Below are positions 55,530 through 63,592 of a stretch of DNA of 64,000 nucleotides, piece after piece. The first letter of the stretch is position 1. Each line of letters opens with the position of its first letter. The notes under the pieces were generated by a model. The model ran no database searches. It had not been told where the DNA came from and saw nothing but the letters and a program-made list of their open reading frames with translations. Location: positions 91,703 to 155,702 of IMG/VR virus record IMGVR_UViG_3300025674_000016. The stretch is one strand, 5' to 3'. The stretch is from a virus. The translations under genes were made by a program, and so were the position numbers.

Positions 55530-55889
55530 ATGCTTTACAAAAGATTTAACAACCAAACAGTATTTGATGAGTTATTTGGAACTGGTTTTAACAAGAAGAC
55601 TAGTGTTAGAGAGTTAAAAGATAGATTCCAAATAAAAGTAGTTGCACCTGGGCTAAGAAAGAAAGACTTTAAGATTGATTTTGAAGATGGTCTGATCAAG
55701 ATTGAATTTAAAAGAGACGCAGATAGAGAAGGTCTGTTTACAAAAGAAAAGTTCTTTAAGTCTTGGATATTGCCAGAAGGAACCGAGCCTGAGCATATCT
55801 CAGCATCATATGATGCAGGTGTTCTTTCAATTTCTATTGACAAAACAGAAGCACACAAGCCCAAGACACAAAATATCCCAATCCAGTGA
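55530..55889 (+). CDS. Small heat-shock protein (Hsp20)
   Basis: APGL.K.DF.I, F.KS..LP, I.ASY..GVL.I.I. Confidence 0.9.
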   Translation: MLYKRFNNQTVFDELFGTGFNKKTSVRELKDRFQIKVVAPGLRKKDFKIDFEDGLIKIEFKRDADREGLFTKEKFFKSWILPEGTEPEHISASYDAGVLSISIDKTEAHKPKTQNIPIQ

Positions 55890-55917
55890 ATAAACCCTGG
55901 CCCTGCTCTGTCTAAGG
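55887..55917 (+). promoter_or_regulatory. ECF-like promoter/stem-loop cassette, copy 1
   Basis: TGAATAAA-N13-CTGTCTAAGG. Confidence 0.8.
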
Positions 55918-55936
55918 GACGTAGGAGGGCAACAAG

Positions 55937-57015
55937 ATGTTCAGCAAAGGTCAGCTCGTCAAGTATCGTGTAGATAGAAAATGGAGCTTCCCAACATTCC
56001 ATACTAAAAAGAATGAAGCCTGGAAGTTTGAATGCATTGGCGTTCTCTTAGGTGAAAAGCTTCTTACAAACAAAAACCTCAATTCTTATTCAGTCTGCAC
56101 AGTTTACTGGAGCGACATGAAAATAAGAAAACACTTCTTAATTGAACTGGACCCTATCAATGAATAAGCGTGAATTTGAAAAAGGCGACCTTGTAAGGAT
56201 ACCTCGTCATATTGCGCAGAATGTTTACCTCACTCGTGATGAAGACACAAAATATTTCCAATTTGGTGTTGTTATTAGAACTATCCCCTCTCCCGTCTCT
56301 ATGACCGCCGAGGTATTTTGGCCACAATTGAAGAAATCTAGTTTTTACTTCTTTCAGCATCTCGTGAGGATTAAATGAGAAAGCATAAATTTAAAAAAGG
56401 TGATCTTGTAAGAGTCGGCCAGTTGTACGGAGGGGCTATTTTTAAACAACCCCTCGAAAGTGATGTTGGGATCGTGGTTAATACCGCTCCCCATCCACGC
56501 TGGCCACATCTGATATCTGTATACTGGTCTATTTTGCAAAAAGAAGTAGAACTTCAGAGAGTGTATCTGGAGCCCATCAATGAAAAAGCATAGTTTTAAA
56601 GAGGGTGATCTTGTAGGAATCCATCCTTCGCATAGGGATTCTATTTTTATAGGACTCCAAGATGATATTGGGGTTGTAGTTGATTCTGAGCCTTGGGGAG
56701 GGAGAAATCGTACTTTGTTGCGTATACACTGGGTTGTGCGACAAACAGAGACGCTTATGTCTGGCAACTATTTATGCCCTCTTGCAAAGGAAGAAGGTCA
56801 TGCATCTTAAAAAAGGAACCTTAGTAAGAATAAGTGAGTATGGCAAGTCAAGACTGACCAAGTACGGGACTCTAAAAAATGTGTTAGAAAAGCCTGATCA
56901 AATCGGCGTTGTTATGTCCACAAAAAAGAATGGCTTTTGGCATAGAGTCTTTTGGGTAGAAACACAAAAAGAAGAGAACATGTATAACGGATTTATAGAG
57001 AGGGTTGAAACATGA
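55937..57015 (+). CDS. Five tandem small KOW/SH3-like paralogs (55937-56167, 56160-56378, 56375-56593, 56580-56810, 56800-57015)
   Basis: Shared (F/L)xxG(D/Q/T)LV...G(V/I)(V/L)...(V/I).W pattern; overlapping start/stop codons. Confidence 0.7.
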
Positions 57016-57257
57016 AATATATTATATATCAACAAAGGGGTGAAGAAAAGGTTGCCCTAACCTTCCCAGGCACCAAGGTACAAGCAGAAAATACATTTAA
57101 TAGAATGTCAAGACTTGGGATTCAGGACATAATTCTTGAAAAGCAGAATAAAGAAAAAACAAAGAAACAAAAAGAAGTAGAGACTTTAAGAAAGAAAGCA
57201 AAGAGGGACTTCCAACGCTACCTCAACGAAAAAAGTGTGAATAACCTTGACGACTAG
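57012..57257 (+). CDS. Hypothetical basic protein
   Basis: Coupled ORF. Confidence 0.5.
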   Translation: MKYIIYQQRGEEKVALTFPGTKVQAENTFNRMSRLGIQDIILEKQNKEKTKKQKEVETLRKKAKRDFQRYLNEKSVNNLDD

Positions 57258-57268
57258 CCTGTCTAAGG
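57238..57268 (+). promoter_or_regulatory. ECF-like promoter/stem-loop cassette, copy 2
   Basis: TGAATAA-N14-CTGTCTAAGG. Confidence 0.8.
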
Positions 57269-57297
57269 GTTGAACGAGGCAAACAACGGAGGAGACG

Positions 57298-58130
57298 ATG
57301 ACTTTCTATATTATTCAAGATAGAATCAGCGGAGATTATTTAACTGACCCTTCCAAAGGAGAATGGCAGTTCTTTGAATGGGAAGGTTATAATCTTGTGA
57401 CTTGTGAGATTGAAGAATGCTCTGGACTCTTTTTGACAATCGAAGATGCAATTGAGGAGCTTGAAAATCTTCAAGAGCAAAAAGAATTAAGGATAGATTC
57501 CCAGCAAGAAGATCTAAGAGTTCTCAGAATAGAGCCTGAGACAAACTACCGATGGTTTAAGGAGGATATCAATGAAGATTGAAAATGGGGACGAGTTGGA
57601 CTTGGAAGGCAAATATTGCTGGATTACTGTTGACAGTATATCAATCTTGATTTCCAAGAAGGATGAAGGTGTCTCAGTTTCTCTCTACCCGCTTGATGGT
57701 GAGAGTGAAGAAAGTCTGGCAGAGACTTGGCTAACATATGCGGAGGCAGAGTGCAATGAGCGATTATGGCCTGAAGAAGTTTAAAACATTTGCAAAAGCA
57801 AACAGGCTGCGACTTGAGAGGTCTGAGGATGGCTTACCTATTGTCGCTGCCCGTGGCAAAAAGTTCCAGGGTTGGCACCTATATGAAGGTTTTGGGGATG
57901 ATTTCGTCGCTCTGTATATAACCAGGGATACACCCGCGAAACTAAAACACTCAGTTCGTTTTGTTAAAAAACTGGGCCTTACCCTCATACAAGAGGGAGA
58001 TCTGGAGGCGGTGTTCAAAGTTCCATATAATCAACTCTGGAGAGTAGCAAAGGAACTTAAAATGGTCAAGAAGTCGCCATCAAATCAAAACTTGTCTGGC
58101 TTAGCTCAGTACAGGGAAGCCAATATATAG
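57298..58130 (+). CDS. Three small hypothetical genes (57298-57582, 57572-57784, about 57756-58130)
   Basis: SD GGAGG sites; coupled ORFs behind cassette 2. Confidence 0.55.
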
Positions 58131-58133
58131 AGT

Positions 58134-58296
58134 AAAGTTAAGAGGTTGGGTTTATTATTGCGACTCATTGTCTATAATGAGCGTTCCTTCCATATAGGGT
58201 ATCATACTTTATTATTTTACATGATACCTGGAGGGAGATTAAAAGTAGGCTAGCATGGGACTCACTGCGAAAACTAGTCCTACCCAATCTCACTTT
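58134..58296 (+). ncRNA. Candidate structured ncRNA (about 160 nt)
   Basis: ORF-free; closing stem GAGGTTGGGT/ACCCAATCTC plus AAAGT/ACTTT; long apical hairpin; core shared with 63413-63450. Confidence 0.55.
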
Positions 58297-58299
58297 CCC

Positions 58300-58330
58300 T
58301 GAATAAAACCGGAAGCTAGACTGTCTAAGG
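58300..58330 (+). promoter_or_regulatory. ECF-like promoter cassette, copy 3
   Basis: TGAATAAA-N13-CTGTCTAAGG. Confidence 0.8.
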
Positions 58331-58349
58331 AACACAACGGGAGGCTGAC

Positions 58350-58619
58350 ATGACAACAAGACAAGAGGCAAGCAAGATGGCTCACATCCACAACCTGTCG
58401 AGAGATAAAAAAATTAATGGCAAGTCTTTGATCCACGCCCTGAACCAGGCTTTCAAGCGTCACGGTATCATGTGGCAGGAACCCAACAGCGTATTCAAGG
58501 GAGATATTGTTGAAGAACTCTTTTCAAGCATGGACTTTTCTTCAAGAGAAAACCCAACGCTTTCTATCGAAGAGTTTTTCGATATTGTAGCAGAAGACCT
58601 GCAAGACTATGTGGAGTGA
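58350..58619 (+). CDS. Hypothetical protein
   Basis: SD GGAGG behind cassette 3. Confidence 0.55.
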   Translation: MTTRQEASKMAHIHNLSRDKKINGKSLIHALNQAFKRHGIMWQEPNSVFKGDIVEELFSSMDFSSRENPTLSIEEFFDIVAEDLQDYVE

Positions 58620-58623
58620 GAAA

Positions 58624-59283
58624 ATGAAAGTTCTTATTGCTTGTGAGGAAAGCCAAGAAGTCACAAAAGCTTTCCGAAGCTTGGGAATAGAGGCATACTC
58701 ATGTGATGTCCAGCCTTGTTCGGGTGGACACCCTGAGTGGCATATCCAGGGCTGTGCCCTGGAGCAAGCCTATAGTGGCGAGTATAGCCTGATGATTGGG
58801 CACCCGCCTTGTACCTTCCTTTCTAAAGCTGGTGCTCGTTGGATGTTTCCAAAGGGCGAGCTTAGTACAGAGAGGTATGAGAAGGCCAAGAAAGCAAAAG
58901 AATTTTTTATGAAACTGATGGAAGCTCCAATCGACCACATCGCACTAGAGAACCCAGTGCCTCTAAAGGTTGTGGAGTTGCCCCAGTTCACACAGGCAAT
59001 TCAGCCTTACCAGTTCGGGCACCCTTTCTCGAAAAAGACCTTGCTCTGGTTGAAGGGGTTGCCGCCCCTGGAGCCGACCAACATTGTAGAGAGACAAGGA
59101 ACTTATCTTCCTTCTAACACAGGCGGAGCCAAGAGGGGTTTATCAAGCGATCAAGGGGTTAGAAAAGCCCAAGGGTCTAAACTAAAACAACATAGAAGTA
59201 AAACATTTTCTGGTATTGCTGAAGCGATGGCAGATCAGTGGTCGAGATTTTTGCTGAATAAACCAGCAGCCTCAACTGTCTAA
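58624..59283 (+). CDS. Phage DNA cytosine methyltransferase-like protein
   Basis: VLIACEES, HPPCT, LENP, K.T.LWL, RSKTF.GIA.AMA.QW. Confidence 0.8.
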   Translation: MKVLIACEESQEVTKAFRSLGIEAYSCDVQPCSGGHPEWHIQGCALEQAYSGEYSLMIGHPPCTFLSKAGARWMFPKGELSTERYEKAKKAKEFFMKLMEAPIDHIALENPVPLKVVELPQFTQAIQPYQFGHPFSKKTLLWLKGLPPLEPTNIVERQGTYLPSNTGGAKRGLSSDQGVRKAQGSKLKQHRSKTFSGIAEAMADQWSRFLLNKPAASTV

Positions 59284-59285
59284 GG
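59255..59285 (+). promoter_or_regulatory. ECF-like promoter/stem-loop cassette, copy 4
   Basis: TGAATAAA-N13-CTGTCTAAGG; CCTCA/TGAGG stem. Confidence 0.8.
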
Positions 59286-59310
59286 GGTGAGGGCAACAAT
59301 GGAGGGCAAA

Positions 59311-59697
59311 ATGGGAATCGAGGTTACACTAGACATCACAGATAGTTTGCAGGTTCAAGAATTAATGGAGATCTTGGATGAAAAACAACTCCTTAAAAAT
59401 ATTTGTTTCAATCAGATGACCTTTGAAAGATGTTCTTTCTCCAATGCTACTTTTGAAGAGTCGGACTTTGACTGCGCTTCCTTTAAAGGTGCAATTTTTG
59501 AGTTTGCTTATATTGAGGCTCCCGACTTCGGCAACGCCCTATTCAAGGGTGGGGCCTGGGATTCAGCACACTTTATGGATGTTGAGTTTCAAGACTGCCA
59601 TTTCACAGATACCGACCCGCCCAATAAAAAAGTTGTTATTGACTTGACAAGGGCGAAGGATGACGAGACTTACATCGACTTGACAAAAAGTGAATAA
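59311..59697 (+). CDS. Pentapeptide-repeat protein
   Basis: CSFSNATFEESDFDCASFKGAIF repeats. Confidence 0.75.
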   Translation: MGIEVTLDITDSLQVQELMEILDEKQLLKNICFNQMTFERCSFSNATFEESDFDCASFKGAIFEFAYIEAPDFGNALFKGGAWDSAHFMDVEFQDCHFTDTDPPNKKVVIDLTRAKDDETYIDLTKSE

Positions 59698-59721
59698 ACC
59701 AGTTACCTCAACTGTCTAAGG
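59691..59721 (+). promoter_or_regulatory. ECF-like promoter/stem-loop cassette, copy 5
   Basis: TGAATAAA-N13-CTGTCTAAGG; CCTCA/TGAGG stem. Confidence 0.8.
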
Positions 59722-59746
59722 TGTGAGGACAGCAACGGAGGACAAT

Positions 59747-60007
59747 ATGAAGATCGAAGAAGAAAAGACTTGGACAATCACTTTTTCTAAGGCTGATATC
59801 AACGGCGTGTTGGCGTTCTTCATTAAAGAGGGGCTCCTTCGCGGCGCAGACCTCAGTGGAGCCGACCTTCAAGGAGCCAATTTGGAGGACGCCGACCTCA
59901 CTGGCGCCAACTTCTCAAGCGCCAACCTCACTGGCGCGAGCTTGGAGCACGCCAACTTGGAGAACGCAGACTTCACAGGGGCGCTACTCGATGGAAGCAA
60001 GTTTTGA
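59747..60007 (+). CDS. Pentapeptide-repeat protein
   Basis: ADLSG/ANLED repeats. Confidence 0.88.
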
Positions 60008-60110
60008 TTGATGATTTATGAGACATGATTCCGAAAATACTCCTTAAAAAATAAACACCATTATTTTTCACCTTCGGAATCACCCTGACCACTTGGGATA
60101 AAGTGGCTTT

Positions 60111-60184
60111 GCACCCATAGCTCAATCGGATAGAGCACCGGCCTTCTAAGCCGTAGGTTCCAGGTTCGAGTCCTGGTGGGTGTG
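60111..60184 (+). tRNA. tRNA-Arg(UCU)
   Basis: Cloverleaf; anticodon loop CT-TCT-AA; T-loop TTCGAGT. Confidence 0.92.
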
Positions 60185-60213
60185 CTGGTTGTGAGACAAC
60201 AACGGAGGATGAG

Positions 60214-60543
60214 ATGAAAGTCGAAGAAAAAAGAATGTGGACAATTACATTTACCACTGACGAAGTGCAGGAGGTTATCAATCTCCTTGTTGAGGAGAAC
60301 CTCTTCAGAGGCGTAGACCTAAGTCGCGCAAATCTCTTTGAGGCAAACCTTCATGGCGCAAACCTCAGTTGCGCAATTCTCAGTTGCGCAAACCTCACTG
60401 GCGCAGGTCTAAGCGCCGCAGACCTCACCAGCGCAGACCTCCGTGAGGCAAACCTCACCAACGCAAAGCTCACAGACGCCGATATAGAAGAATCGGCTCT
60501 GCGACAAGCAAACATTTGTGAATGCGATCCAAGCGATGTCTAG
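60214..60543 (+). CDS. Pentapeptide-repeat protein, paralog of 59747
   Basis: Shared MK.EE...WTITF N-terminus; ANL repeats. Confidence 0.88.
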   Translation: MKVEEKRMWTITFTTDEVQEVINLLVEENLFRGVDLSRANLFEANLHGANLSCAILSCANLTGAGLSAADLTSADLREANLTNAKLTDADIEESALRQANICECDPSDV

Positions 60544-60562
60544 GAACACAATAGGAGACGCC

Positions 60563-61462
60563 ATGAAACTAGGCTATGCCTGCATCAATACAGAGTTGAC
60601 AGAAAGAGGTGTCTCTTCAAACAGAGGCATGATCAAGCGAACCTTTCAGGCCAAGGGCGTTAACTACGCATCAGAGATCGCCCTTGCAAACGTGAGGGCA
60701 CTGAAGGAAATTATTCAGTGGAATGCAGATAACGACATTCATGTATACAGAATGTCAAGCCTTTTGTTTCCTTGGATGTCCGAGTATGAGATTCAAGACC
60801 TCCCAGATATTGATCTCATCAAGACTACCCTGCTGGCCTGCGGCAAACTTGCCAGACAACACGCCCAGCGCCTCAGTTTTCACCCAGGACCGTACAACGT
60901 CCTGTGCAGTCCCAAAGATAATGTCGTAGATAAAACAATAAAAGAACTAAATCAACACAGCGAGATCATGGACTTGATGGGCCTGCCACGCTCGCCATAT
61001 GCCAAGATAAATATTCACTTGGGTGGCGCATACGGCGACCACGCAGGTTCAATGGCGCGGTTCTGCACCAATTTCCAGCGCCTTGACGAAGGCACCAGGG
61101 CTCGCCTCACCGTTGAGAATGACGACAAGCCCTCTATGTATTCCACTAAGATGCTGTATGAAGGTGTCCATAAGGTAATTGGAACACCAATTGTCTTCGA
61201 CTCGCACCATTTCAGTCTCGGCCCACAAGACCAGACATACGAAGAAGCTTTCTATCTTGCTCGCAAGACTTGGGAAGGCACTGGAGTCAAGCAGATTTGC
61301 CATCATTCTAACTCTAGGCGCAAATATGACGACCCAAAGGCCAAGCCTGTCGCACATAGCGACCTTATTCACGAGAGATTCGAGAACTTCGGAGAAGATA
61401 TTGATCTTGTCTTGGAGGCAAAGAAAAAAGAATTAGCGATCAAACACTATCCAAAAAGCTGA
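60563..61462 (+). CDS. uvsE: UV damage endonuclease
   Basis: LGYACIN, R.SS..FP, HPG, IH.GG, ENDD, D.HH, H.S, HSD, EAK.KE. Confidence 0.93.
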   Translation: MKLGYACINTELTERGVSSNRGMIKRTFQAKGVNYASEIALANVRALKEIIQWNADNDIHVYRMSSLLFPWMSEYEIQDLPDIDLIKTTLLACGKLARQHAQRLSFHPGPYNVLCSPKDNVVDKTIKELNQHSEIMDLMGLPRSPYAKINIHLGGAYGDHAGSMARFCTNFQRLDEGTRARLTVENDDKPSMYSTKMLYEGVHKVIGTPIVFDSHHFSLGPQDQTYEEAFYLARKTWEGTGVKQICHHSNSRRKYDDPKAKPVAHSDLIHERFENFGEDIDLVLEAKKKELAIKHYPKS

Positions 61463-61490
61463 ATAAATCGGCAGCCTGCCCTGTCTAAGG
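61460..61490 (+). promoter_or_regulatory. ECF-like promoter/stem-loop cassette, copy 6
   Basis: TGAATAAA-N13-CTGTCTAAGG. Confidence 0.8.
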
Positions 61491-61517
61491 TACGAGGCAG
61501 CAACAACGGAGGAAACA

Positions 61518-61763
61518 ATGCGACTCAAACTTGGTGATCTCGTAGAACTCAACTACGCAGGGAAAGGTACTCAATGGCTTTATCAAGCAAAAGGAAAGAT
61601 TGGGGTTTTAACAGAGATGTGTGACAGGCAGCTTTATAAAGAAGGCGCTGCTTATATTTCTTGGATTGATGTTCCCCCTCCTGAATATTGGGGATACCTC
61701 AATCTCAACAAAGTGGCTATTCCACTCTACTGCCTCAAGAAAGTAAGGAGAAAGAAGAAATGA
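61518..61763 (+). CDS. Small KOW/SH3-like protein
   Basis: LKLGDLVEL...GVL...ISW. Confidence 0.6.
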   Translation: MRLKLGDLVELNYAGKGTQWLYQAKGKIGVLTEMCDRQLYKEGAAYISWIDVPPPEYWGYLNLNKVAIPLYCLKKVRRKKK

Positions 61764-61984
61764 AAGTAAAGAATCTAAAGCCTGGGCAGATGTTTTTGCG
61801 TGGCCAACAACTATTTCTTAAACTAGATATTGAAGATCCCAGGTTTAGAGATTATTTAACCCTAAACTATGAGATGTGCGAGCCCACGTTTGATATCTCA
61901 ACTGGGGTGTTCCACCCCTTCTTTTCAGAAGAAGAAGTAATTCCTGTGTCCACGGGTATTGAGATCACAAGGATGGGAGCATGA
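61760..61984 (+). CDS. Hypothetical protein
   Basis: SD AAGGAG; MKVKNLKPGQMF. Confidence 0.55.
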   Translation: MKVKNLKPGQMFLRGQQLFLKLDIEDPRFRDYLTLNYEMCEPTFDISTGVFHPFFSEEEVIPVSTGIEITRMGA

Positions 61985-61999
61985 TTTTTTGAGAAAGTG

Positions 62000-62030
62000 T
62001 GAATAAACCTCTCGGCTGAACTGTCTAAGA
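62000..62030 (+). promoter_or_regulatory. ECF-like promoter, copy 7 (upstream of tRNAs)
   Basis: TGAATAAA-N13-CTGTCTAAGA. Confidence 0.8.
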
Positions 62031-62036
62031 GGTGAT

Positions 62037-62108
62037 GCTAGCGTAGCTCAACGGTAGAGCAACTGCCTTGTAAGCAGTAGGTTATGGGTTCAAATCCCTT
62101 CGCTAGCT
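62037..62108 (+). tRNA. tRNA-Thr(UGU)
   Basis: GCTAGCG/CGCTAGC acceptor; anticodon loop CT-TGT-AA. Confidence 0.92.
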
Positions 62109-62113
62109 TATCA

Positions 62114-62186
62114 GGGGAATTAGCTCAGTTGGTAGAGCACCGCCTTTGCACGGCGGGTGTCATCGGTTCGAGTCCGATATTCTCCA
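62114..62186 (+). tRNA. tRNA-Ala(UGC)
   Basis: G3:U70 pair; anticodon loop TT-TGC-AC. Confidence 0.93.
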
Positions 62187-62210
62187 TTCTTGGCCAAGAT
62201 TCGTTTTTTG

Positions 62211-62241
62211 TGAATAAACACACCACCTCACCTGTCTAAGG
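62211..62241 (+). promoter_or_regulatory. ECF-like promoter/stem-loop cassette, copy 8
   Basis: TGAATAAA-N13-CTGTCTAAGG; CCTCAC/GTGAGG stem. Confidence 0.8.
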
Positions 62242-62271
62242 AGTGAGGGCAACACAACAGAGGAGTTAGAA

Positions 62272-62508
62272 ATGTCTGAAAAAACTCTTAACCTTATTCG
62301 TGAAAACCAAGTTGTTAACTTTGTTGCAAGCAGGCGAGGACGCAAGGGCGGTAAGATTCAGGCCAATACCTTTGAAGAAGTTGCTGCCCAGGCAGCAGCA
62401 AAAGGCTGGACTGGAGATCTCGTGGTATCAAAGATTTTTGTTTCTAATACAAAGTCCACGCCCACGATTTCCAGTGAAGAATCTGGGGTCGCAGTTGCAG
62501 AAATGTGA
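62272..62508 (+). CDS. Hypothetical protein
   Basis: SD GAGGAG behind cassette 8. Confidence 0.55.
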   Translation: MSEKTLNLIRENQVVNFVASRRGRKGGKIQANTFEEVAAQAAAKGWTGDLVVSKIFVSNTKSTPTISSEESGVAVAEM

Positions 62509-62535
62509 ATAAGCACACTTCCACCCCCGTTAGGG
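62506..62535 (+). promoter_or_regulatory. Degenerate cassette, copy 9
   Basis: TGAATAA-N14-CCGTTAGGG. Confidence 0.45.
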
Positions 62536-62559
62536 CGTGAAACAACAAAGGAAGATAAC

Positions 62560-62823
62560 ATGAAACAAAAGCTTTATCTAGTTACTGCTAGTTGTTGGGG
62601 CCACCCGTTCCCTGGGGACGGGGACTGGATTGAGTGTTTTGAGACTCGTGAAGAGGCTCAAGACTTCATTGACAGGGCGAAAACCGATGCAGAGGAGTCC
62701 AATGAGTATAATTGGGCCAAATACTATTTCAAAGATTTTGGCCACCCGAAGGATGTGGCGTACATCATAGACCTTAAACAATGGATTGAAGGAATAAACC
62801 CCCAGCCTCAATCGTTATATTAG
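62560..62823 (+). CDS. Hypothetical protein
   Basis: ORF behind cassette 9. Confidence 0.55.
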   Translation: MKQKLYLVTASCWGHPFPGDGDWIECFETREEAQDFIDRAKTDAEESNEYNWAKYYFKDFGHPKDVAYIIDLKQWIEGINPQPQSLY

Positions 62824-62855
62824 CGAACGAGGGGCTGGCAAGCAAAAGAAAATGG

Positions 62856-62886
62856 TGAATAAAACACCAGCCTCTCCTGTCTAAGG
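62856..62886 (+). promoter_or_regulatory. ECF-like promoter/stem-loop cassette, copy 10
   Basis: TGAATAAA-N13-CTGTCTAAGG; CCAGCCTC/GAGGCTGG stem. Confidence 0.8.
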
Positions 62887-62901: not shown

Positions 62902-62985
62902 GCATCAGTGGCGGAAACGGTAGACGCGCTGGGTTTAGGTTCCAGTGCCCATTTGGGCATGGGGGTTCGAGTCCCCCCTGATGCA
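62902..62985 (+). tRNA. tRNA-Leu(UAG)
   Basis: Long variable arm; anticodon loop TT-TAG-GT. Confidence 0.92.
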
Positions 62986-62986
62986 T

Positions 62987-63230
62987 GACGCGCCCCCTGA
63001 CAAGGGCTAGTAGGGGTGGTCCCTCTATGATTGAACTGGACTAGTCATCCAGAATAAAAACTCCTCCTCGGATGAGGCGGGTCGTCAACAGCCCGTTAGT
63101 AACGACAAGCGAAGGTAGTAAGAGAGGTTGGGGGTAGGCCCCTGGCCGACAACGGGAAACCCGAAAGGGAGTCTCCTTCGCCAAAACACTTAAATATAAG
63201 TGTGCCGTGCAGCGTTACTGTTGACCGTTC
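62987..63230 (+). ncRNA. Candidate multi-stem pseudoknotted ncRNA (about 240 nt)
   Basis: ORF-free and GC-rich; GNRA-type hairpins; long-range GTCAACA/TGTTGAC and GTAACG/CGTTAC pairings. Confidence 0.6.
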
Positions 63231-63304
63231 GCATCCATAGCTCAGTTGGTCAGAGCCACCCGCTCATAACGGGTTGGTCCTCGGTTCGAGTCCGAGAGGG
63301 TCCA
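63231..63304 (+). tRNA. tRNA(CAU), Ile2/Met type, with a mismatched acceptor stem
   Basis: D, anticodon (CT-CAT-AA) and T arms are intact; acceptor GCATCCA/AGGGTCC has C:C and A:A mismatches. Confidence 0.7.
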
Positions 63305-63412: not shown

Positions 63413-63510
63413 CTCATTGCCTATAATGAGCTTTAATGAAAGTAGGCTAGTACCAGTCTTGTATTAAAAGAGGCGACGGCCCATTCAAGGCCCACCCGTG
63501 CTCATAGACT
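63413..63510 (+). ncRNA. Candidate pseudoknot RNA, short version of the 58.2 kb element
   Basis: CTCATTGCCTATAATGAGC...AAAGTAGGCTAG shared with 58164-58253. Confidence 0.5.
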
Positions 63511-63512
63511 TT

Positions 63513-63587
63513 CTGCTTGTAGCTCAACCAGGTTAGAGCACTGGCCTTATAAGCCAGAGGTTGTGGGTTCGATCCCCACCAGGCAGA
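63513..63587 (+). tRNA. tRNA-Ile(UAU)
   Basis: CTGCTTG/CAGGCAG acceptor; anticodon loop CT-TAT-AA. Confidence 0.88.
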
Positions 63588-63592
63588 TTTCT

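What the first reader, a model, noticed from the sequence alone, without database searches (positions are those of the whole stretch)
62987..63230. Large pseudoknotted RNA candidate embedded in the tRNA operon
Seen: about 240 nt without an ORF between tRNA-Leu and tRNA(CAU). Hairpin GCGGGT/GCCCGT has a loop GTCAACA (63084-63090) complementary to TGTTGAC (63219-63225). The adjacent GTAACG (63099-63104) pairs with CGTTAC (63213-63218). These enclose a domain closed by GCGAAG/CTTCGC and GAGA/TCTC with a GTAGTAA bulge, GGGG/CCCC and CCC-GAAA-GGG hairpins, and an ACACTTA/TAAGTGT hairpin. Known: phage tRNA clusters host unusual ncRNAs (GOLLD, ROOL, theta ribozymes), but the size and motifs here match none I recognise. 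Inference: a new structured RNA released by tRNA processing.
Basis: partly seen in the sequence, partly recalled or inferred. Interest (0 to 1): 0.75.

Follow-up and report, generated by a model that had tools for sequence, protein, structure and literature searches.

The report
Pseudoknotted RNA inside phage tRNA operon
The 245-base gap between two tRNA genes of this uncultured marine or estuarine phage encodes a real, evolutionarily conserved folded RNA with a pseudoknot; it matches no known RNA family and its job is still unknown.

Summary
Window 62986-63230 (+) has no credible ORF and lies in a tRNA operon driven by a repeated promoter-like cassette at 62856. It matches no Rfam 15 family.

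Near-identical strains were uninformative. Diverged homologs were found in two related phage lineages (UvdE 68% identical): L191/L192/L193 and L208, at 237-242 nt. A 106-nt short form occurs in a more distant relative (L195).

Window versus L191 across 62 proposed base pairs: 27 unchanged, 10 changed on one side, 24 changed on both sides with pairing kept, 1 broken. Slid controls pair only 20-30 of 62.

Only GAGA/TCTC stays ambiguous.

It is the best-conserved part and the only part kept in the short form.

The RNA always fills the whole gap between two tRNAs, so release by tRNA-processing enzymes is likely. That is inferred, not shown. Function is unknown. It is a new RNA family of a known kind (phage tRNA-array RNAs such as T4 rnaC/rnaD, GOLLD, ROOL). 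Earlier scan notes concern only this same window.

The parts
62856..62886 (+). Promoter-like cassette TGAATAA-N16-GTCTAAGG that heads the tRNA operon
Evidence: 8 exact copies in the window against 0 expected in shuffles.
62902..62985 (+). Upstream tRNA-Leu(TAG); the RNA starts at the next base
   Evidence: ARAGORN and Rfam. In lineage B the same RNA instead follows tRNA-Lys(TTT).
62986..63230 (+). Whole structured RNA, 245 nt
   Evidence: No credible ORF and no Rfam match. Full-length homologs: L168, L182, L181/186/189, L191-193, L208.
62992..63007 (+). H1 hairpin (GCCC/GGGC) with a UGAY-containing loop
   Evidence: Invariant in the W and D lineages. Extended by two G-U pairs in the short form L195.
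63010..63028 (+). H2 hairpin, 7 bp, loop UGGNN
   Evidence: The loop varies (UC/AA/CU) while the stem is kept. Against L195: one double and two one-sided changes, none broken.
63029..63035 (+). Conserved single-stranded linker GAWUGAA
   Evidence: Alignments A2 and A4.
63036..63052 (+). H3 hairpin, 5 bp
   Evidence: 3 double changes versus L191, 3 versus L195 and 1 more in L208; never broken.
63053..63080 (+). A-rich linker (RAUAAA) and conserved CCUCCUCGGA(U)GAGGCGG segment
   Evidence: Nearly identical in the W and D lineages and absent from the short form. Its pairing is unresolved.
63077..63096 (+). PA hairpin (GCGGGU/GCCCGU); its loop carries the 5' strand of the pseudoknot
   Evidence: One double and one one-sided change versus L191, none broken.
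63084..63090 (+). Pseudoknot 5' strand (loop of PA)
   Evidence: Pairs with 63219-63225. 3 of 7 pairs change on both sides in L191. The terminal pair 63084:63225 is lost in lineages B and D.
63219..63225 (+). Pseudoknot 3' strand, 5 nt before the next tRNA
63099..63104 (+). PB helix 5' strand (GUAACG), pairs with 63213-63218
   Evidence: 2 double and 2 one-sided changes, none broken. The L168 A-to-G change and the L208 G-to-A change also keep pairing.
63213..63218 (+). PB helix 3' strand (CGUUAC), contiguous with the pseudoknot 3' strand
63109..63181 (+). Pc-closed three-way domain (Pc 63109-15/63175-81)
   Evidence: 5 of 7 Pc pairs change on both sides versus L191.
63117..63122 (+). Conserved unpaired AGUAAG in the junction
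   Evidence: Identical in W, L191 and L208 while the flanking helices differ.
63126..63147 (+). Pd hairpin, 9 bp, loop NAGG
   Evidence: 4 double and 5 one-sided changes versus L191, none broken. L208 adds one more double change and one U-U mismatch.
63154..63174 (+). Pe hairpin with conserved GAAA tetraloop (63163-66)
Evidence: Inner stem: 2 double changes.
63186..63203 (+). Pf hairpin (ACACUUA/UAAGUGU)
   Evidence: 4 double changes versus L191. Loop changes only in L208.
63231..63304 (+). Downstream tRNA, here a Val/Met chimera; marks the 3' boundary of the RNA
   Evidence: Relatives carry separate tRNA-Val(TAC) and tRNA-Met(CAT). The window and L175 lack the stretch between the two shared D-arms.

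Best explanation
This is a phage-encoded structured non-coding RNA of a previously undescribed family, built into a tRNA operon. SHOWN: (1) It is a conserved unit of 237-245 nt that always fills the whole space between two tRNA genes. (2) It folds into a 5' module of three hairpins (H1-H3) joined by highly conserved single-stranded linkers, followed by a 3' domain. (3) In the 3' domain, hairpin PA presents its loop to the 3' tail to form a pseudoknot. This stacks on helix PB and encloses a three-way junction (Pc, Pd, Pe with a GAAA tetraloop) plus hairpin Pf. (4) A 106-nt short form keeps only the 5' module plus a plain hairpin. INFERRED: it is transcribed from the ECF-like cassette at 62856 together with the tRNAs. 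It is then cut out as a discrete molecule by the enzymes that mature its neighbours: cleavage after the upstream discriminator (the tRNAs encode no CCA, which points to an RNase Z-type cut) and RNase P at the 5' end of the downstream tRNA. Both ends sit within a few nucleotides of stable helices, which would protect the released RNA. I think it most likely acts in trans during infection as a stable RNA that binds a protein or another RNA of the translation or tRNA machinery. In this reading the 5' module is the functional core and the pseudoknotted domain is an accessory or second functional module. The molecular target is unknown.
For: No credible ORF and no Rfam match for either the W or the D copy. 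It lies on the same strand as the tRNAs, downstream of a cassette that occurs 8 times against 0 expected, with no promoter-like or terminator-like site inside it on the + strand. Covariation: 24 double and 10 single pairing-preserving changes in 62 pairs against 1 break, with slid controls at 20-30 of 62. Tool counts: 9 double-change pairs against 0-2 in slid controls, and 11 of 22 pairs on the 5' part including the short form (alignment fitted to the model). An independent lineage, L208, adds further compensatory pairs in H3 and Pd. The plus strand of the diverged copy folds better than the minus strand (z -2.2 versus -1.2). Sequence constraint: between lineages whose coding DNA is 72-86% identical, the RNA differs at 3 of 245 positions, while nine shared tRNAs differ at 23 of 690. 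Unpaired motifs (GAWUGAA, RAUAAA, AGUAAG, GAAA, NAGG) persist while the helices around them change. The flanking tRNAs vary (Leu-TAG, Lys, Val or Leu-TAA upstream; Val or Met downstream), but the RNA's boundaries always coincide with tRNA ends.
Against: The family is narrow. It was found in three lineage groups only and not in 49 of the 50 larger related phage records, including 7 that are at least 90% complete. The near-identity between lineages A and B could partly reflect recent exchange of the block RNA+Val+Met, which has only 4 differences in about 400 nt. The inner-domain alignment for W versus D was curated by hand, because MAFFT and the single-sequence model misalign parts of it. A purely cis role in precursor folding or processing would produce the same conservation pattern.
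Confidence: 0.6

Rival explanations
1. It is a cis-acting processing or insulator element. In this reading the folded spacer exists to keep neighbouring tRNAs from misfolding in the polycistronic precursor, or to position or time RNase P / RNase Z / RNase E cuts. It would then be degraded and have no trans function.
For: It always abuts tRNAs exactly and is always within one gene of tRNA-Met(CAT). A second, unrelated structured spacer ('element 2', 124-161 nt) occupies the same kind of slot, upstream of tRNA-Val or tRNA-Met, in sister lineages. That suggests the slot, rather than one specific RNA, may be what matters. The 3' half is replaceable by a plain hairpin.
Against: Most tRNA pairs in the same arrays are 2-20 nt apart with no such element, so processing does not need one. 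The conserved single-stranded motifs, a GAAA tetraloop and a 245-nt multi-domain fold with a pseudoknot are far more than an insulator requires. Sequence conservation equals or exceeds that of the tRNAs.
Confidence: 0.2
2. It is a catalytic RNA that matures its neighbours, i.e. a self-cleaving ribozyme acting at one of its own ends. This would be functionally like the theta (HDV-like) ribozymes proposed to cut tRNA 3' trailers in gut phages.
For: The position is the same as for theta ribozymes: directly after a tRNA that lacks an encoded CCA (PMC10879173). It has a pseudoknotted fold and strongly conserved unpaired nucleotides.
Against: No match to any Rfam self-cleaving ribozyme family, even at E<=10. 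The first helix after the tRNA is a simple hairpin with a 5-8 nt loop, not an HDV-type P1 that encloses P2/P3. The nucleotides at both junctions are not conserved: UGACG / UUCAC / UGAG at the 5' end and CCGUUC / CCGCAU / GACCG at the 3' end. No hammerhead CUGAUGA...GAAA core is present.
Confidence: 0.07
3. It is a selfish or decaying element, for example the relic of a mobile intron or another insertion in a recombination hotspot, kept by hitch-hiking with tRNA-Val/Met rather than by function.
For: The array is an insertion hotspot. A sister lineage has a group I intron with an HNH gene in tRNA-Leu(TAA). Small ORFs come and go between tRNAs, and tRNA order is rearranged. The RNA moves together with tRNA-Val/Met, and that block is unusually uniform.
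Against: Relics do not accumulate 24 compensatory pair changes with 1 break. There is no similarity to the resident group I intron or to Rfam Intron_gpI. It has been retained with the same architecture at 68% UvdE identity.
Confidence: 0.08

Closest known systems
Phage T4 small stable RNAs rnaC and rnaD (species 1 and 2 RNAs)
   Same: They are non-coding RNAs of 119-139 nt encoded inside the phage tRNA cluster on the tRNA strand. rnaD starts 1 nt after tRNA-Arg. They are annotated as small stable RNAs. To my knowledge their function is still unknown and they are matured with the tRNAs.
   Different: No sequence or structure similarity: the 5'-module model scores 8.5 bits or less on the T4 region and does not hit rnaC or rnaD. 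The T4 RNAs are shorter. The host and phage group differ (T4 is a Straboviridae coliphage; here an uncultured GroEL/DnaE-encoding myovirus group).
GOLLD and ROOL RNAs
   Same: They are large, elaborately folded, pseudoknotted RNAs of unknown function, encoded by phages and prophages and often near tRNA islands. One GOLLD lies downstream of a Met-tRNA in a marine metagenome (10.1101/2024.12.08.627333).
   Different: They are roughly 580 nt and over 800 nt long, against 245 nt here. No Rfam match to either. Multimeric cage formation is known for them and is untested here.
Theta (minimal HDV-like) ribozymes next to phage tRNAs
   Same: They sit immediately downstream of phage tRNAs and are proposed to process the 3' trailer (PMC10879173).
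   Different: They have the HDV nested double-pseudoknot topology, are small, and occur in gut phages. Here the topology does not fit and there is no Rfam HDV-type match.

Membership tests
Any Rfam 15 family (4227 models, including GOLLD, ROOL, HEARO, raiA, OLE, RNase P, tmRNA, Y RNA-like, group I/II introns, all self-cleaving ribozymes and riboswitches) | Covariance-model score at or near the family's gathering threshold | tested here: not met
   Only the flanking tRNAs match. Nothing inside 62986-63230 at E<=10. The same holds for the diverged copy in L191, where the best inside hit is Whalefall-1 at 11 bits against a threshold of 37.
HDV-like / theta ribozyme | P1 starts at +1 and its strands are separated by P2 and P3 (nested double pseudoknot); catalytic C in J4/2 | tested here: not met
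   The first conserved helix (H1) is a local hairpin with a 5-8 nt loop. The 5' terminal nucleotides are not conserved.
Hammerhead ribozyme | Conserved CUGAUGA and GAAA cores between three helices | tested here: not met
   The linkers read (C)UA and GAWUGAA, with no CUGAUGA. No Rfam hammerhead hit.
Group I intron (present in the same array of a sister lineage) | Match to Intron_gpI / the P3-P9 core; insertion within a gene whose exons are rejoined | tested here: not met
   The real intron in L168 scores 46 bits. The element gives no hit at E<=10 and lies between complete tRNAs rather than inside one.
T4 rnaC / rnaD | Sequence or structure homology to the T4 species 1 and 2 RNAs | tested here: not met
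   Model R2 on T4 69000-75000 finds nothing at rnaC or rnaD, 8.5 bits or less anywhere.
T4 rnaC / rnaD (functional analogy) | Accumulates as a stable RNA processed from the tRNA precursor | not testable with these tools
   No read data could be obtained.
tRNA / tRNA-like pseudogene | Cloverleaf with T-loop and D-loop signatures | tested here: not met
   ARAGORN and the Rfam tRNA model find nothing in 62986-63230.

The most novel reading that the evidence does not exclude
The RNA is a new functional class rather than another orphan motif. One possibility is an RNA that intervenes directly in translation or tRNA metabolism during infection. Its invariant CCUCCUC stretch (63063-69) has the anti-Shine-Dalgarno core sequence, and these phage genes carry strong GGAGG sites. 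It might also bind tRNA ends or a host nuclease as a decoy. Another possibility is a new ribozyme that matures CCA-less phage tRNAs.
Probability: 0.12. Interest if true: 0.85.

Novelty: new variant of a known kind. Interest (0 to 1): 0.62.

Why it matters
Phage tRNA arrays repeatedly harbour elaborate RNAs whose roles are unsolved (T4 rnaC/rnaD for decades; GOLLD and ROOL now with structures but no function). This one is small enough (245 nt, with a 106-nt natural minimal form) for probing, crystallography or cryo-EM, and genetics. It has a secondary structure already supported by compensatory changes and natural modular variants: the 5' module alone, or with the pseudoknot domain. It could therefore be a tractable entry point into why phages place structured RNAs among their tRNAs. 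It also adds a family that current Rfam-based annotation cannot see.

Tried and rejected
1. Rfam at gathering threshold and at E<=10 found only tRNAs.

2. blastn 'distant' against 50,697 phage records matched only the tRNAs. blastn and nhmmer against 163 related loci found nothing.

3. Exact-pattern scans of IMG/VR:
- An 18-mer from the GAAA region gave 3 chance hits inside coding genes.
- Patterns from the junction, the tRNA-Leu 3' end and the conserved 5' motif gave nothing.
- The gapped 5'-core pattern found only the already known L195 contig.
- The same pattern gave one chance hit in a Syntrophomonas MAG, which the model does not support.

4. Neighbour-protein routes:
- The 87-aa ORF has no relatives in IMG/VR.
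- Its 71-80% relatives have a different gene order.
- Contigs carrying the 223-aa ORF start downstream of the RNA.

5. The single-sequence model R1 found nothing in 50 related records.

6. Weak model hits all lie in coding sequence and were rejected: L196, L202, L215.

7. L190 (UvdE 68%) has tRNA spacers of similar length, but they hold small ORFs and not this RNA.

8. Helices proposed only by energy minimisation are not conserved and were dropped:
- the CGUU/AGCG and GUA/UGC pairs of the window MFE;
- the GAGUAA/UUACUC helix of L191;
- the 5'-3' closing stem of the 5' part, which clashes with PA.

9. Reading the 5' part as a degenerate class II tRNA, a box C/D k-turn, a loop E motif or an 11-nt GAAA receptor did not hold or could not be tested.

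10. Near-identical strains (L172-L175) and the 97% relative L168 could not show excess conservation, because their flanks are equally similar.

Full report
CONTEXT. The window is the last 64 kb of a 155.7-kb IMG/VR virus record. The phage is a myovirus with a major head protein, tail sheath, DnaE-type polymerase, ribonucleotide reductase, GroEL and UvdE. All genes near the finding are on the + strand. Seven tRNAs are present. Four of them lie between a promoter-like cassette at 62856-62886 and the next, variant cassette at about 63593: Leu-TAG 62902-62985, 'Met'-CAT 63231-63304, Leu-TAA 63324-63409 and Ile-TAT 63512-63588. The cassette reads TGAATAA-N16-GTCTAAGG and has 8 exact copies in the window against 0 expected. 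None of the tRNAs encodes CCA.

THE OBSERVATION. By energy alone the case is modest:
- whole spacer, z = -1.45;
- 3' domain 63082-63228, z = -2.9 (0 of 200 shuffles as good);
- 5' part, z = -0.4;
- the minus strand folds about as well.
Rfam 15 gives nothing but the tRNAs, even at E<=10.

FINDING HOMOLOGS. Sequence searches of phage genomes and of 163 loci around UvdE and GroEL relatives found nothing. Neither did a single-sequence covariance model on 50 whole related records.

The neighbouring 87-aa ORF led to near-identical contigs (L172-L175) and a 97% relative (L168). These carry the same RNA with 0-5 changes, but their flanks are just as similar, so they say little.

A metagenome scan anchored on the 5' half of the downstream tRNA gave lineage B (L181/L186/L189). 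Here the same 245-nt RNA follows tRNA-Lys(TTT) instead of tRNA-Leu(TAG), and similarity starts at the first base after the tRNA. Between this lineage and the window lineage:
- coding DNA is 72-86% identical;
- nine shared tRNAs differ at 23 of 690 positions;
- the RNA differs at only 3 of 245 positions.
This means either strong constraint or recent exchange of the RNA+Val+Met block.

The UvdE protein search showed a gap from 98% to 68% identity. Contigs of the 68% clusters are syntenic. In them the single-sequence model gave a full-length match (21.6 bits, E about 0.002) ending 2 nt before tRNA-Met, in a 237-nt spacer after tRNA-Val (L191:8939-9175; also L192 and L193). A further variant, 88% identical to L191, lies in a TARA scaffold (L208:11069-11310).

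A model of the 5' part then found a 106-nt spacer between tRNA-Leu(TAA) and tRNA-Met in a more distant GroEL relative (L195, minus strand; 32 bits, E about 1e-7). After this sequence itself was added to the model it scores 80 bits, so that higher score is not independent.

STRUCTURE FROM COMPARISON. The 5' 98 columns are 78% invariant across all copies, against 39% for the rest. Yet the helices change in a pairing-preserving way.

Window versus L191 over 62 pairs:
- 27 identical;
- 10 changed on one side;
- 24 changed on both sides;
- 1 broken, the terminal pseudoknot pair 63084:63225, which is also lost in lineage B.
Sliding the 3' strands by 1-3 nt leaves only 20-30 of 62 pairs.

Per helix, as double / single changes:

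| Helix | Double | Single |
|---|---|---|
| H3 | 3 | 0 |
| PA | 1 | 1 |
| PK | 3 | 0 |
| PB | 2 | 2 |
| Pc | 5 | 0 |
| Pd | 4 | 5 |
| Pe inner | 2 | 0 |
| Pe outer | 0 | 2 |
| Pf | 4 | 0 |

H1 and H2 are invariant between these two lineages. Against L195, H2 shows one double and two single changes and H3 three doubles.

The independent tool count covers H1-H3, PA, PK and PB on the unedited MAFFT alignment. It gives 98.8% of cells paired and 9 pairs with double changes, against 0-2 in slid controls. In the shuffle control, 0 of 500 shuffles reach the observed pairing or covariation score, and 2 of 500 reach 9 double-change pairs.

L208 versus L191 adds new compensatory pairs in H3 and Pd, and pairing-preserving single changes in Pc, Pd and PB. 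It also has one U-U mismatch in Pd.

Because both PA and PK covary, the pseudoknot is real, or else a conserved switch between the two. Its geometry is that of a standard H-type knot: a 6-bp stem, a 1-nt first loop and a 6-7-bp second stem.

The one reader element I cannot confirm is GAGA/UCUC. Its 3' strand (63172-75) can pair either with the junction purines or with GGG 63154-56, and the three lineages do not discriminate between the two.

Unpaired nucleotides that stay fixed while the helices drift: UGAY in the H1 loop, UGG in the H2 loop, GAWUGAA, RAUAAA, CCUCCUCGGA(U)GAGGCGG, AGUAAG, NAGG and GAAA. This suggests tertiary contacts or a bound partner.

CAVEAT. For the inner 3' domain I assigned the L191 helices by coordinates, guided by the conserved junction motifs. 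MAFFT and the single-sequence model misalign parts of this region.

ANATOMY AND LIKELY MECHANISM. In every lineage the RNA occupies the entire inter-tRNA gap:
- Upstream partner: Leu-TAG, Lys-TTT, Val-TAC or Leu-TAA.
- Downstream partner: Val-TAC or Met-CAT.
- It is always at most one gene away from tRNA-Met(CAT).
No promoter-like or terminator-like site lies inside it on the + strand.

Established tRNA biology (my knowledge) then predicts two cuts: RNase P at 63230/63231, and an endonucleolytic cut after the discriminator at 62985/62986. Because CCA is not encoded, the second cut is likely RNase Z-type. Together they would free a 245-nt RNA whose ends are 4-6 nt from stable helices. That step is inferred, not shown.

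The short form shows that the 5' three-hairpin module can stand alone. The pseudoknotted domain is a second module, itself under structural selection between the W and D lineages.

I favour a stable trans-acting RNA (0.6) over a purely cis processing or insulator role (0.2), a ribozyme (0.07) or a selfish relic (0.08).

COMPARISON WITH KNOWN SYSTEMS. The closest analogues are T4 rnaC and rnaD, which are stable RNAs inside the T4 tRNA cluster; rnaD starts 1 nt after tRNA-Arg. They show no homology to this RNA. GOLLD and ROOL are phage RNAs often near tRNA islands and of unknown function (10.1101/2024.12.08.627333). They are far larger and do not match. Theta ribozymes share the position after a tRNA (PMC10879173) but not the topology.

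NOVELTY AND SCOPE. This is a new RNA family of a known kind. It is rare. It is present in three lineage groups of estuarine/marine GroEL-encoding myoviruses and absent from 49 of the 50 larger related records searched with the improved models. It was not found in 185,579 prokaryotic species genomes by the core pattern. The scan's earlier notes contain only same-window entries.

Noticed in passing
window 63231-63304: The tRNA(CAT) with C2:C71 and A7:A66 acceptor mismatches is a chimera. It joins the 5' acceptor strand and D-arm of tRNA-Val(TAC) to the rest of tRNA-Met(CAT). Near-identical strains (L172, L173, L174/L188) and other lineages carry both tRNAs 3-6 nt apart. The window and L175 lack exactly the stretch between the two shared D-arm sequences. 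This is either a real deletion variant that lost tRNA-Val or an assembly collapse.
   Followed up: yes
L168:2083-2775 (relative; corresponds to window about 63359/63360 in tRNA-Leu(TAA)): A sister lineage has a roughly 690-nt insertion in the anticodon loop of tRNA-Leu(UAA), between U and AA. This is the classic site of the cyanobacterial and plastid tRNA-Leu group I intron. It scores 46 bits on Rfam Intron_gpI (gathering threshold 50) and carries an HNH_3 ORF (L168:2089-2595).
   Followed up: partly
L168:1245-1374, L182:628-757, L183-L185, L187 (relatives): A second, unrelated structured inter-tRNA spacer ('element 2', 124-161 nt). It has a GCGUGA/UCACGC closing helix around three hairpins, with optional extra hairpins. 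It sits upstream of tRNA-Met or tRNA-Val in sister lineages, and in lineage C it occupies the slot of the RNA studied here.
   Followed up: partly
window 63470-63500: In the Leu-TAA/Ile spacer, the hairpin GGCGACGGCCC...GGCCCACCCGTGCTC is replaced in L173/L174 by a different hairpin-forming sequence, while the upstream half of the spacer is identical.
   Followed up: no
window 55887-62886, L191:8826, L195 (minus) about 1720: The TGAATAA-N16-GTCTAAGG cassette occurs 8 times exactly in the window (0 expected). Related forms head the tRNA arrays of the 68% and more distant relatives, so it is a conserved lineage-wide promoter-like signal with ECF-type spacing.
   Followed up: partly
L195:771-1106 (minus), L209:8335-8668, L211:11582-11919 (relatives): Several related phages encode a tmRNA next to their tRNAs or UvdE (ARAGORN tag peptides ANNN...LAA; Rfam tmRNA 120 bits in L195). 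No tmRNA was found in the window.
   Followed up: no
L173:2942-3103, L168:1469-2041 (relatives; between tRNA-Met and tRNA-Leu-TAA): Small ORFs come and go between the same two tRNAs in different strains: a 53-aa ORF, and a 130-aa ORF whose translated sequence looks pentapeptide-repeat-like (not checked against Pfam). The array is an insertion hotspot.
   Followed up: no
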